From contig JAZDLW010000004.1 of NCBI GenBank assembly GCA_043801595.1, forward strand, positions 1-27,601: a stretch of 27,601 bases of DNA. Reading direction: 5' to 3'. A program made the position numbers and the translations under genes. How positions within the stretch are numbered: position 1 is the first letter of the stretch; each line of letters starts with the position of its first letter. Under the pieces are notes generated by a model that ran no database searches, was not told where the DNA came from, and was given only the letters and a program-made list of their open reading frames with translations. Below, piece after piece: positions 5,313 through 7,995 of this stretch. The stretch is from Candidatus Aenigmatarchaeota archaeon (GTDB lineage: Archaea > Aenigmatarchaeota > Aenigmatarchaeia > JACPZZ01).

Positions 5313-6503
5313 TTAAAATCTTTTTCTGTACCCGCCAAACGTTCTTCGGCGAAAACCGGACCTGCGTTCCTCTTGTTTGAAAGCAACCCGCTCAAACACG
5401 GGCTTTTCGGCCTTGGTTATCTTTAAACTCCGGTCGCGCAAAACCCGCGCAAAATTATCGTGGTCGCGTTCCGATAAAAGCGTAACAGCGTCACCTTCCT
5501 CGCCCGCTCTCGCAGTTCTTCCGACGCGGTGAATGTAATCGGACGACGATTTCGGGACGTCATAATTGTACACATGCGAAACGTTTCTGATATCAAGCCC
5601 GCGTGCAGCGACATCGGTCGCAACCAACGCTCTTATGGTTTCGTTCTTCAGCGCCTCTACGGATTTGAGCCTTTTATTCTGCTCCATTCCGCCGTGTATG
5701 GCTTCCGCGTTTATGTCCTGTGCTTTCAGATTTGTTGCGACAATGTCCGCTTCCCTTCGCGTTGCCACGAAAATAAGCGCTATGCCCTCTGCATTCTGCT
5801 TTAACAAATGGACAAGCAGTGAAAACTTGTCATACGGTTTTACGTCGTAATAAACATGCCTCAACAAACTCGTATCAACATAAACCACGCCTTTAATGGT
5901 AACAGGGGATACAAGATGCTTTTCAACTATGTGTTTTATTTCAGACGGCATTGTGGCGCTGAACAACATTGTCTGGCGCTTCTTCGGCGTAACCCTGATT
6001 ATCCGTTCAACGTCTTCTATGAAGCCCATTTCAAACAGCCTGTCCGCTTCGTCTATGACCAAAAACCTGACACGGTCAAATTTTATCGTTCCACGACTAA
6101 GATGGTCCAGAATTCTTCCTGGGGTGCCGACAACTATATCGGCTTTCCGTAGTGCCGATATTTGCGGTTCAATGGAAACCCCGCCAAAAACAGACGTTAC
6201 GCTGACACCAGTATATTTTCCAAAACTGCGCAGCGCTTCCGTGACTTGCACGCACAACTCCCTAGTGGGCGTTAAAATCAACGATTGTATGCCATTACCC
6301 AGTTCTATTTTTTCAAGTATTGGCAACCCGAATGCAAGCGTTTTTCCCGAACCCGTGCTCGACTGCCCGACAACGTCCTTGCCGTCGCGTATCAGCTGTA
6401 TGCATTTTTCCTGTATCTGCATTAACTCTGAAAAACCCAGTTCTGTTACGGCTTTCAATAATTGCGGATTTAATTTCAAATCTTCAAAATTCATTTTCAT
6501 CAT
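5313..6503 (-). CDS. DEAD-box ATP-dependent RNA helicase
   Basis: Q motif, TGSGKT, PTREL, TPGR, DEAD, SAT, ARGLD, HRVGRTAR; short Arg/Gly/aromatic tail. Confidence 0.97.
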   Translation of the reverse strand: MMKMNFEDLKLNPQLLKAVTELGFSELMQIQEKCIQLIRDGKDVVGQSSTGSGKTLAFGLPILEKIELGNGIQSLILTPTRELCVQVTEALRSFGKYTGVSVTSVFGGVSIEPQISALRKADIVVGTPGRILDHLSRGTIKFDRVRFLVIDEADRLFEMGFIEDVERIIRVTPKKRQTMLFSATMPSEIKHIVEKHLVSPVTIKGVVYVDTSLLRHVYYDVKPYDKFSLLVHLLKQNAEGIALIFVATRREADIVATNLKAQDINAEAIHGGMEQNKRLKSVEALKNETIRALVATDVAARGLDIRNVSHVYNYDVPKSSSDYIHRVGRTARAGEEGDAVTLLSERDHDNFARVLRDRSLKITKAEKPVFERVAFKQEERRSGFRRRTFGGYRKRF

Positions 6504-6543
6504 TTCTTCAATGTGCGTGTCCTACGTAATTAAGGCAGTGGTT

Positions 6544-6552
6544 CTTATAAAA
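6544..6552 (-). promoter_or_regulatory. Putative TATA box of the DEAD-box helicase gene
   Basis: TTTTATAAG about 40 nt upstream of the first ATG. Confidence 0.45.
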
Positions 6553-6586
6553 CCGATGCACAGCCTTAAACCGGACTTTTTAACTC

Positions 6587-6679
6587 TTATTTGCCTCTTT
6601 TTTTGCCCTTTCTTTTGCATCCAATAAGCCAGTGGCCGGATTTTCCGCAAATTAAACATTTTTTCACAATTTTCACCAT
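6587..6679 (-). CDS. CCHC zinc-knuckle microprotein (30 aa, or 26 aa from GTG 6667); not in the ORF track
   Basis: Translates as MVKIVKKCLICGKSGHWLIGCKRKGKKRGK*, an exact C-x2-C-x4-H-x4-C with GxxGHW; SD GGTGA 5 nt before GTG 6667; TATA-like TTTTTAAG at 6706-6713. Confidence 0.75.
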   Translation of the reverse strand: MVKIVKKCLICGKSGHWLIGCKRKGKKRGK

Positions 6680-6744
6680 TCCAATAAATATAATGTCCGC
6701 TTGGTCTTAAAAAGACTTTACGAAGGCTCTGTTTTCAAAGAATT

Positions 6745-7368
6745 CTATTTGTGATATTTTCTGAAAATGAAAAACGAATAAACAAACAACGCCATTACCG
6801 TTACTAGTATAGGAACGATTACAAAATAAATCGCCAAATTGCCTGCAAAAATCCCAAGCAACGTAATGACAGCGCTTGCTCGAATGACTTTACCGCCGAC
6901 TTCGTGCGTTTTTGTCCAAACCCTGTCGTCGCTCATGGTCCAGGGTGTGCGTATCCCTATTGACCAGTTTCTTTTTGCGTGTTCCATGACAACGCCAACG
7001 TAAAACAAAAAAACCGAAAAAGCCGGAATCATCGCAACTGAGAAATTGAACACGTACCCCGAATTCCACGCAATCGTTAATGTAAAAACGTACAGTAAGA
7101 ACGCGACTATCATGATCATGAAATTTTCATAATAGTTGCGGAATTTACTGATATTTTTTCCGAGCGGATCTATCATCGGCATTATTAAAAGCAATCCGTA
7201 AATTACCAGCGACAATACTGGCATTAGAAACATCAGCTGCGCCTTTGGCGCATAGCCGTTTACGTTTCCGTTCATGCCCCAGTGCGATGCCATGTTGTCA
7301 GGCATTGACGGATAGAAATAAAACGCTGTTAAAAAAGTCAAAACCACTATTGGCAAGGCGAGTTTCAT
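6745..7368 (-). CDS. SdpI/YhfL family membrane protein with DUF1648 N-terminus
   Basis: MPDNMASHWGMNGNVNGY and RNWSIGIRTPWTMSDDRVWTKTH motifs; about 6 TM helices. Confidence 0.9.
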   Translation of the reverse strand: MKLALPIVVLTFLTAFYFYPSMPDNMASHWGMNGNVNGYAPKAQLMFLMPVLSLVIYGLLLIMPMIDPLGKNISKFRNYYENFMIMIVAFLLYVFTLTIAWNSGYVFNFSVAMIPAFSVFLFYVGVVMEHAKRNWSIGIRTPWTMSDDRVWTKTHEVGGKVIRASAVITLLGIFAGNLAIYFVIVPILVTVMALFVYSFFIFRKYHK

Positions 7369-7424
7369 TTTAACAACCTATAGATATTACGCGTTTTGAT
7401 ATAAATTTTATTGAATATGTTCAA

Positions 7425-7613
7425 CGCTGCGGAAGGGATTTAAACCCTCGCGTGCTTGCGCACACTGGCTCTCTGGTCGCAGGGAAAAACATATGTTTGC
7501 AATTTACCCGAAGGTAAACTGTAATAGTTTTCTTTTGAAAACTATTTCCCTGCGAACAACTTGTTCCTATACATTCCAGACCAGCGCCGTGGACCTAGCT
7601 TGGCTACCGCAGC
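7425..7613 (-). tRNA. tRNA-Ser(GGA) with a 103-nt intron at 37/38 (intron 7471-7573)
   Basis: Acceptor GCTGCGG/CCGCAGC, G73, long variable arm, anticodon loop CT-GGA-A^A; helix CTGG/CCAG with 3' bulge AG^A; mature length 86 nt; CCA not encoded. Confidence 0.92.
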
Positions 7614-7640
7614 AATTATTTAATAGAATTAGGCGGTTCA

Positions 7641-7683: not shown

Positions 7684-7995
7684 CTATAAACCTTGCATAC
7701 CGATATCATACTTTCGCGCTAATTTTTTAGCATGATAAGTTAACTGGGAAAAATTCCAATTAAGCGTGGACAGTCTTGCAAGGTCGACTTTCCATCCACC
7801 GTCGCTATCAGAACCTCGTTCGTTTCTCTTTTGCCAACTATAAAATCTTATATCCTTACCGCCTGTTTCGCCTTGCACGACCACTAATGCTGTTATTCTT
7901 CTCGGCGTTCTCTGAATATCAAAACCATCCAGAGGCGTATAGACATCTGCCACAGGATATAATTCTCTCAATTGTTCCGTAGTTCGTCCAGACAT
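7684..7995 (-). CDS. Hypothetical protein (103 aa)
   Basis: ATG-started ORF with TATA-like CTTAAAT about 23 nt upstream (leaderless spacing); no family recognised. Confidence 0.7.
   Translation of the reverse strand: MSGRTTEQLRELYPVADVYTPLDGFDIQRTPRRITALVVVQGETGGKDIRFYSWQKRNERGSDSDGGWKVDLARLSTLNWNFSQLTYHAKKLARKYDIGMQGL

What the first reader, a model, noticed from the sequence alone, without database searches (positions are those of the whole stretch)
6587..6679. Unannotated stand-alone CCHC zinc-knuckle microprotein directly upstream of the DEAD-box helicase
Seen: a 30-codon ORF below the track cutoff, MVKIVKKCLICGKSGHWLIGCKRKGKKRGK. It has exact C-x2-C-x4-H-x4-C spacing, the typical GxxGHW and a very basic tail, plus SD GGTGA before GTG 6667 and a TATA-like box at 6706-6713. 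It is co-oriented with the helicase and ends 83 nt before it. Established: this knuckle binds single-stranded nucleic acid in retroviral nucleocapsids, Lin28/CNBP and Air1/2, and is fused to some eukaryotic DEAD-box helicases (GLH, DDX41). Inference: a minimal archaeal RNA chaperone or trans-acting cofactor for this short helicase, which lacks a folded C-terminal RNA-binding domain.
Basis: partly seen in the sequence, partly recalled or inferred. Interest (0 to 1): 0.75.

Follow-up and report, generated by a model that had tools for sequence, protein, structure and literature searches.

The report
Stand-alone archaeal zinc-knuckle microprotein family
The tiny unannotated gene is real and belongs to an unnamed family of 26-37-residue zinc-knuckle proteins found in two distant archaeal groups; it probably binds zinc and RNA, but it is unlikely to be a dedicated partner of the neighbouring RNA helicase.

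Summary
The 30-codon ORF at 6587-6679 (-) is a real gene. Homologues of 26-33 aa occur in 13 of 371 Aenigmatarchaeota genomes (6 genera; one has a stop in place of the second Cys). Across 11 intact copies the three Cys, His, two Gly and Trp are invariant, and pN/pS is 0.04-0.17 within the genus. The family reaches ammonia-oxidising archaea: 41 of 46 further hits, including Nitrosarchaeum BG20_I0946, carry the same core plus three more Cys and one more His. No Pfam or NCBIfam family is passed at cut-off. The helicase-cofactor idea is weak. The gene directly adjoins a DEAD-box gene in 2 of 13 genomes and lies within three genes in 7 of 13, in two genera. 21 of 27 sampled helicase-bearing genomes gave no match. 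Two sister species broke or lost it and kept the helicase. The SD/GTG-6667 start is not supported. Best reading: a dispensable zinc-stabilised, basic single-stranded-RNA-binding microprotein (0.5); rivals are metal buffering, ribosome or protein binding, and helicase cofactor. Binding and expression are untested.

The parts
6587..6679 (-). Zinc-knuckle microprotein gene, 30 codons plus TAA; start ATG 6679 or GTG 6676
6617..6658 (-). Knuckle core, codons 8-21: C-x2-C-G-x3-H-W-x2-G-C
   Evidence: C8, C11, G12, H16, W17, G20, C21 invariant in 11 of 11 intact plain-type copies
6590..6616 (-). Lys/Arg-rich tail, codons 22-30; variable in sequence, basic in all 11 copies; replaced by His- or Cys-bearing tails in other branches
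6706..6713 (-). TATA-like box, first base 34 nt before ATG 6679; genome peak is 29-32 nt before the first ATG, so a leaderless or nearly leaderless transcript is plausible; untested
6673..6677 (-). GGTGA; lies inside codons 1-3 and is not conserved in homologues; probably not a working SD
6544..6552 (-). Separate TATA-like box between the microprotein and the helicase, about 48 nt before ATG 6503; suggests the helicase can be transcribed on its own; consensus match only
5313..6503 (-). DEAD-box RNA helicase, 396 aa, two-domain core plus 21-residue Arg/Gly-rich tail (neighbour, not shown to be a partner)
   Evidence: PF00270 E 7e-53, PF00271 E 3e-31; tail
6745..7368 (-). SdpI/DUF1648 membrane protein gene, upstream neighbour (65 nt gap); not seen at this place in the five genus loci examined
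7424..7614 (-). tRNA-Ser(GGA) with 95-nt intron; in G004 and G002 the microprotein starts right after this tRNA

Best explanation
A genuine, dispensable archaeal microprotein made of one CCHC zinc knuckle between basic ends. Zn2+ bound by C8, C11, H16 and C21 folds the knuckle (inferred). Leu9 and Trp17 line the cleft that holds an exposed guanine in retroviral knuckles, and the Lys/Arg flanks grip the phosphate backbone (inferred). It would act as a general single-stranded RNA binder or chaperone. It is made from its own near-leaderless transcript or as a coupled tail gene of unrelated operons, and is not dedicated to the DEAD-box helicase. Shown here: gene reality, selection, family range, variable context. 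Not shown: expression, zinc binding, RNA binding.
For: Selection: pN/pS 0.04-0.17 in 6 of 6 genus pairs; pS 0.83 vs pN 0.20 over all pairs of 11; 18 of 19 third positions vary against 9 of 19 first and second. Flanks not conserved. Start overlaps or nearly touches the upstream stop in 5 of 13 copies (gaps -4, -4, -4, 3, 5). Weak matches all point to knuckles: Pfam zf-CCHC models; 10 of 10 Foldseek rows at E 2-9 include HIV-1 NC (rmsd 0.8 A over 17 columns), RecQ4 and CLIP-170 knuckles. Passages of PMC7599994: guanine is held between Phe16 and Ile24 of HIV-1 NC, and the single knuckle of MoMuLV NC binds RNA; by spacing these map to Leu9 and Trp17 (Cys/His numbering of NC recalled). Trp is invariant in 11 of 11; net charge +5 to +11. 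Neighbours include tRNA-Ser, Elp3, an EF-Tu-domain-2 protein, a PC4-like protein and DEAD-box genes.
Against: No Pfam model reaches its cut-off for the window peptide (17.4 vs 27 bits; 13.5 vs 20.8). Structure matches are not significant; the wide VIA search gave 0 of 48161 at Z >= 2; pLDDT 71.6. The residue after the first Cys is aromatic in only 2 of 11. In 37 of 46 wider hits the Trp position is Lys/Arg. Knuckles also bind proteins (Air2 ZnK5, PMC3384339 passages), and some haloarchaeal zinc-finger microproteins do not bind zinc (PMC11241148 passages). RNA-related neighbours are common in such reduced genomes, and other neighbours (GDSL lipase, Fic, PD-(D/E)XK, flavin reductase) are unrelated.
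Confidence: 0.5

Rival explanations
1. Metal buffer or sensor. The ancestral form is the 6-Cys/2-His ammonia-oxidiser type, able to hold two metal ions; the window form is a one-site remnant whose lysines are not for RNA.
For: 41 of 46 hits have an extra Cys in the loop, a His and a C-x-C, all invariant in 25 of 25 aligned; intermediate forms carry His-rich tails (P0038, P0042, G014). Homology to the window form is firm: profile-profile probability 98.6%; the ammonia-oxidiser profile scores the 11 plain copies 24.5-35.8 bits against 1.2-15.2 for 54 retroelement-type knuckles.
Against: The window form has exactly four ligands, an invariant Trp and net charge +11. No metal-transport or metal-regulator gene was recognised among the neighbours scanned (19 proteins). 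The reverse profile does not separate the two sets (16.4-35.6 vs 14.0-29.6 bits).
Confidence: 0.2
2. Accessory ribosomal or protein-binding subunit: a small basic zinc protein that docks on rRNA or on a protein partner.
For: Size and charge resemble archaeal eL41 (37 aa); aS21 has two zinc knuckles and was found only by cryo-EM (PMC7005279 passages). In the window's genus it lies in the neighbourhood of the EF-2/EF-1A/tRNA-Ser genes. CLIP-170 and Air2 knuckles bind proteins.
Against: Only 13 of 371 genomes; broken or lost in close relatives; no solved ribosomal chain matches beyond the C-x2-C-G half motif.
Confidence: 0.14
3. Trans-acting cofactor of the DEAD-box helicase, supplying an RNA-binding module.
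For: Within three genes of a DEAD-box gene in 5 of 5 carriers of genus g1 and 2 of 3 of genus g74; the two genera's helicases are not sisters and the order differs. Rough own arithmetic: about 2% chance that one of three other helicase-bearing genera would show this, if positions were independent.
Against: Direct adjacency in 2 of 13. Different contigs in G141, G198, G199, G014; helicase not found with this query in G121 and G143 (79% and 75% complete). 21 of 27 helicase-bearing genomes gave no match. G002 broken and G005 lacking it keep 398-aa helicases. No Cys in 28 of 28 helicase tails; the 2 longer hits among 1477 candidates are joined to non-helicase proteins.
Confidence: 0.13
4. Chance ORF or inert relic of a retroelement.
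For: The nearest long look-alikes are knuckles inside long, mostly retroelement-like ORFs (69 of 69 metagenome loci; 27 of 28 hits are 99 aa or longer). One copy is broken (G002).
Against: Purifying selection, conserved start, length and stop in six genera and a second phylum; a family signature after the His that separates it from those knuckles.
Confidence: 0.03

Closest known systems
Retroviral-type CCHC zinc knuckle (Pfam PF00098 zf-CCHC, PF13696; HIV-1 and MoMuLV nucleocapsid, Air2)
   Same: C-x2-C-x4-H-x4-C spacing, Gly after the second Cys, hydrophobic residues at the two guanine-cleft positions, basic flanks; model superposes weakly on NC.
   Different: Below Pfam cut-offs; the knuckle is the whole protein; archaeal chromosomal gene; family-specific H-x-[LI]-x-G-C end; most relatives add three Cys and a His.
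Haloarchaeal one-domain zinc-finger microproteins (C(P)XCG proteins of Haloferax volcanii; Brz of Halobacterium)
   Same: Archaeal, under 50 aa, one predicted zinc site, a C-x2-C-G motif; Brz is also C3H and regulates an adjacent gene (PMC6562870 passages).
   Different: Those have two C(P)XCG motifs, or C(P)XCG plus CxxxH; here the second half is H-x4-C at knuckle spacing. No shared family model was hit.
Small archaeal ribosomal proteins aS21 and eL41
   Same: Small, long overlooked; aS21 has zinc knuckles (PMC7005279 passages).
   Different: No sequence match beyond a half motif; patchy and dispensable distribution.

Membership tests
zf-CCHC zinc knuckle (PF00098 and related models) | C-x2-C-x4-H-x4-C spacing | tested here: met
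   11 of 11 intact plain copies and 25 of 25 ammonia-oxidiser-type copies
zf-CCHC zinc knuckle (PF00098 and related models) | Score above the curated Pfam cut-off | tested here: not met
   Window peptide 13.5 vs 20.8 bits; G001 19.2 and G006 18.3; no Pfam match for 6 of 6 wider members
zf-CCHC zinc knuckle (PF00098 and related models) | Knuckle fold | tested here: inconclusive
   AF2 pLDDT 71.6; Foldseek rows are knuckle-type but E 2-9; no VIA match
zf-CCHC zinc knuckle (PF00098 and related models) | Binds one Zn2+ through 3 Cys and 1 His | not testable with these tools
   needs metal analysis
Nucleocapsid-type RNA-binding knuckle | Hydrophobic or aromatic pair after the first Cys and after the His | tested here: inconclusive
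   Trp after His in 11 of 11; after Cys: Phe 2, Leu 3, Ile 2, Val 1, Pro 3; Lys/Arg after His in 37 of 46 wider hits
Nucleocapsid-type RNA-binding knuckle | Binds single-stranded nucleic acid or anneals it | not testable with these tools
   needs assay
Haloarchaeal C(P)XCG microproteins | Two C(P)XCG motifs | tested here: not met
   one motif only; definition from PMC6562870 passages
DEAD-box helicase cofactor | Conserved linkage or co-occurrence with the helicase | tested here: inconclusive
   7 of 13 within three genes, 2 of 13 adjacent; no match in 21 of 27 helicase-bearing genomes
DEAD-box helicase cofactor | Fused form exists in relatives | tested here: not met
   0 of 28 tails with Cys; 0 of 2 longer hits are helicases (weak search); no PF00098 match in a helicase among 371 genomes
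DEAD-box helicase cofactor | Binds the helicase or changes its activity | not testable with these tools
Metallothionein-like metal buffer | High Cys content binding several ions | tested here: not met
   window form has 3 Cys and 1 His; only the ammonia-oxidiser type has 6 Cys and 2 or more His

The most novel reading that the evidence does not exclude
Archaea encode a free-standing, nucleocapsid-like zinc knuckle as a whole protein, shared between Aenigmatarchaeota and ammonia-oxidisers. In two Aenigmatarchaeota lineages it has been drawn next to a DEAD-box helicase because it works in trans as that enzyme's detachable RNA-binding module, the split counterpart of knuckle-bearing eukaryotic helicases (those fusions are recalled, not checked).
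Probability: 0.13. Interest if true: 0.8.

Novelty: new variant of a known kind. Interest (0 to 1): 0.5.

Why it matters
It adds an unnamed, mostly uncalled microprotein family that links a DPANN lineage with the ammonia-oxidising archaea. It is a natural minimal test of what one CCHC knuckle can do alone, and it comes in a graded series (4 ligands plus Lys tail, 5 ligands plus His tail, 8 ligands) that can be made by peptide synthesis and compared for RNA versus metal binding. A named ammonia-oxidiser member makes expression testable. If the helicase link held, it would be a trans-encoded RNA-binding module for an archaeal DEAD-box protein.

Tried and rejected
RNA expression: no RNA holder listed; no evidence either way. 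Complex prediction with the helicase: tool not available, so binding stays open. Metagenome scan: 69 of 69 loci are knuckles away from an ORF start, in frames of 63-1468 codons; none is a family member. Viral contigs: nothing with the plain profile; 3 stretches but 0 loci returned with the ammonia-oxidiser profile. Phage records: 4 partial rows at E 6-8; plasmids: none. PHROGs: one row at E 0.028. ESM Atlas: best scores 0.86-0.87, leads only. AF2 of the ammonia-oxidiser type: pLDDT 61.8, uninformative, not searched. Weak genome hits dropped as half-motif matches without the full ORF: G193, G054, G308, G097, G364; G173, G354, G357; G028; G241 and G137 were dropped on score and coverage without inspection. 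G089 was set apart as a probable foreign contig. RNA structure over 6495-6690: z -0.26; Rfam finds only 5S rRNA in the window. Selenocysteine reading of the G002 TGA: selD not found in 4 of 4 genomes (80-86% complete), so treated as a break or assembly error. The sigma-70 scan does not apply to archaea. Literature: ten searches listed no paper on this family; supplements were not opened.

Full report
Observation. It lies 65 nt after an SdpI/DUF1648 gene and 83 nt before a 396-aa DEAD-box helicase. Records that hold three of the genus-level homologues are titled Candidatus Aenigmatarchaeota. The helicase is in the 15-billion-protein collection; the ATG-6679 and GTG-6667 forms of the peptide are not.

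It is a real gene. A four-sequence profile found matches in 18 of 371 genomes of the class; 12 had E <= 1.1e-7 and six had E >= 1e-3. Two further profiles returned the same 12 and added G014 and G089. I count 13 genomes in six genera and four families: 12 intact, and G002 with TGA at the second Cys. G089 is set apart (below). Weak half-motif hits were dropped as listed under Tried and rejected. The genomes are 68-96% complete, so 13 of 371 is a lower bound. The 11 intact plain-type copies are 26-33 aa, all start with ATG, and keep C, C, G, H, W, G, C invariant. Over 19 aligned codons pN/pS is 0.04-0.17 in the six genus pairs; over all pairs pS is 0.83 and pN 0.20; the least selected pair printed is 0.55 (uncorrected proportions on few codons). 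Flanking DNA is not conserved. In 5 of 13 copies the start overlaps or lies within 5 nt of the upstream stop, as expected for translational coupling.

Start site. The SD reading is not supported. GGTGA arises from codons 1-3, the genus homologues' ATG aligns with GTG 6676, 0 of 13 copies have an SD-like 5-mer before the ATG, and 51 of 623 long genes in this genome have one. TATA-like boxes peak 29-32 nt before the first ATG in this genome; the box at 6713-6706 is 34 nt before ATG 6679. A near-leaderless transcript is the simplest reading. Only 3 of 13 copies showed such a box within 45 nt. The helicase has a TATA-like box of its own at 6552-6544. These are consensus matches only.

The family is wider than the finding. 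A 17-sequence profile returned 46 proteins among 173 candidates. 41 of them add a Cys inside the loop, a His and a C-x-C; 3 are intermediate; 2 are plain. Only one carries an organism name: BG20_I0946 of Candidatus Nitrosarchaeum limnium, phylum Nitrososphaerota. That the other 40 also come from ammonia-oxidisers is inferred from their likeness to it. Homology is firm in one direction: a profile of 25 such proteins, without any Aenigmatarchaeota row, ranks the 13 genomes plus G089 first among 371 and scores the 11 plain copies at 24.5-35.8 bits against 1.2-15.2 for 54 control knuckles; profile-profile probability is 98.6%. The reverse profile does not separate the sets. G089 (6% contamination) carries the 8-ligand form on a 2.1-kb contig with a DUF6659-like gene and a 122-aa gene. 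That 122-aa protein is 50% identical to the N-terminal part of P0080, one of two long hits in which the knuckle is joined to another protein on sub-kilobase contigs. I infer that the contig is of ammonia-oxidiser origin and that this gene is a recurring neighbour there. No DEAD-box gene appears in these three short contexts.

No curated family claims it. The window peptide scores below cut-off on four Pfam knuckle models. NCBIfam gave one row at E 0.045 for 2 of 11 plain copies. Six wider members hit no Pfam model and one unrelated NCBIfam model at E 0.28. The AF2 model has pLDDT 71.6. Its ten Foldseek rows are non-significant; they include HIV-1 NC and the CLIP-170 and RecQ4 knuckles, and five are Trypanosoma RNase D, whose knuckles I recall. 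The wide VIA search found nothing.

The helicase link. In genus g1 the order is tRNA-Ser, variable genes, microprotein, variable genes, helicase: directly adjacent only in G000; one gene between in G004 (cyclophilin); two in G001, G002 and G006. In genus g74 it follows the helicase by 44 nt in G138 and by two genes in G140; in G141 it is on another short contig and not within 1.5 kb of the helicase. In G198 and G199 it overlaps the stop of Elp3 (Pfam-checked in G198), in G014 the stop of a GDSL lipase; in G143 it follows an EF-Tu-domain-2 gene. That makes 2 of 13 adjacent and 7 of 13 within three genes. The g1 and g74 helicases are not sisters in a 25-row tree, so the repeat is worth noting; rough arithmetic gives about 2% by chance, but inherited synteny could explain it. 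Also, the EF-Tu-domain-2 gene that precedes the microprotein in G143 lies beside or near the helicase in G198 and G199, which hints at an old shared neighbourhood. Against a required partnership: of 27 genomes with a helicase match at E <= 4e-63, 21 gave no microprotein match; G002 (broken) and G005 (absent at a contiguous locus) are sisters in the tree and keep 398-aa helicases; 0 of 28 helicase tails have a Cys, and most have an Arg/Gly-rich tail. That basic tails tether DEAD-box proteins to RNA rests on a reference title seen in PMC9196750 and PMC7566566 and on recall. The complex prediction could not be run.

Mechanism. Most likely (0.5) the four ligands bind one zinc and fold a knuckle, whose Leu9/Trp17 cleft and basic ends bind exposed bases of single-stranded RNA. 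In HIV-1 NC the equivalent pair holds a guanine, and MoMuLV NC binds RNA with one knuckle (PMC7599994 passages). All of this is inference from anatomy. Knuckles can bind proteins instead (PMC3384339 passages), a zinc-finger motif does not predict the partner (PMC6562870 passages), and some archaeal ones do not bind zinc (PMC11241148 passages). The loss of the Trp in 40 of 46 wider hits, and their extra ligands, keep metal buffering (0.2) open. A ribosome- or protein-binding role (0.14; PMC7005279 passages) and the helicase cofactor (0.13) follow.

Novelty. Archaeal zinc-finger microproteins are a known kind. A stand-alone single CCHC knuckle with a ligand-rich sister branch in a second phylum was not found in ten literature searches. 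I read passages only; no supplement was opened. Table S4 of PMC9258230 (passages seen) and the small-protein catalogue PMC11364881 (search listing only) could list it unnamed. Earlier scan notes describe other Cys/His microproteins in Aenigmatarchaeota and Nitrosopumilus and a zinc-finger microprotein next to a DEAD-box gene in a bacterium; I did not test them, and sequence look-ups found no overlap. Verdict: real gene, new variant of a known kind, function untested; interest 0.5.

Noticed in passing
The tRNA-Ser intron is 144 nt in G002 and G005.
   Followed up: partly
L014 (G030:C21), about 50-100 nt upstream of the helicase: By reading: a 17-codon Lys/Arg-rich ORF with GGTGA 4 nt before its ATG sits just upstream of this DEAD-box gene; no cysteines.
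   Followed up: no
L031:1167-4979 (G004): The EF-2 frame is 1270 codons against about 730 in relatives and diverges after the HIHHGK motif, which looks like an intein insertion; G001 seems to have an insertion at the same place.
   Followed up: no
L147, L153, L155 (G280 contigs C8, C38, C26; also C61, C87): Short contigs with long retroelement-like knuckle ORFs over the PF00098 cut-off in an archaeal bin of 1.9 Mb; probably foreign DNA.
   Followed up: no
L173 (G089:C74): 2.1-kb contig with the 8-ligand form, a DUF6659-like gene and a 122-aa gene; probably of ammonia-oxidiser origin within an Aenigmatarchaeota bin.
   Followed up: partly
L176:2168-3652 (G143): Type IB topoisomerase (PF01028, PF02919, PF14370) converging on the microprotein gene.
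   Followed up: no
window 7684-7995 (-): 103-aa protein without Pfam or NCBIfam match, conserved between the EF-1A gene and tRNA-Ser in G004 and G005.
   Followed up: no
L179:5962-6219, L141, L142 (genus g74): A small PC4-like protein (E 6e-4, below cut-off) lies just downstream of the DEAD-box gene in 3 of 3 genomes of g74, a tighter link to the helicase than the knuckle has.
   Followed up: no
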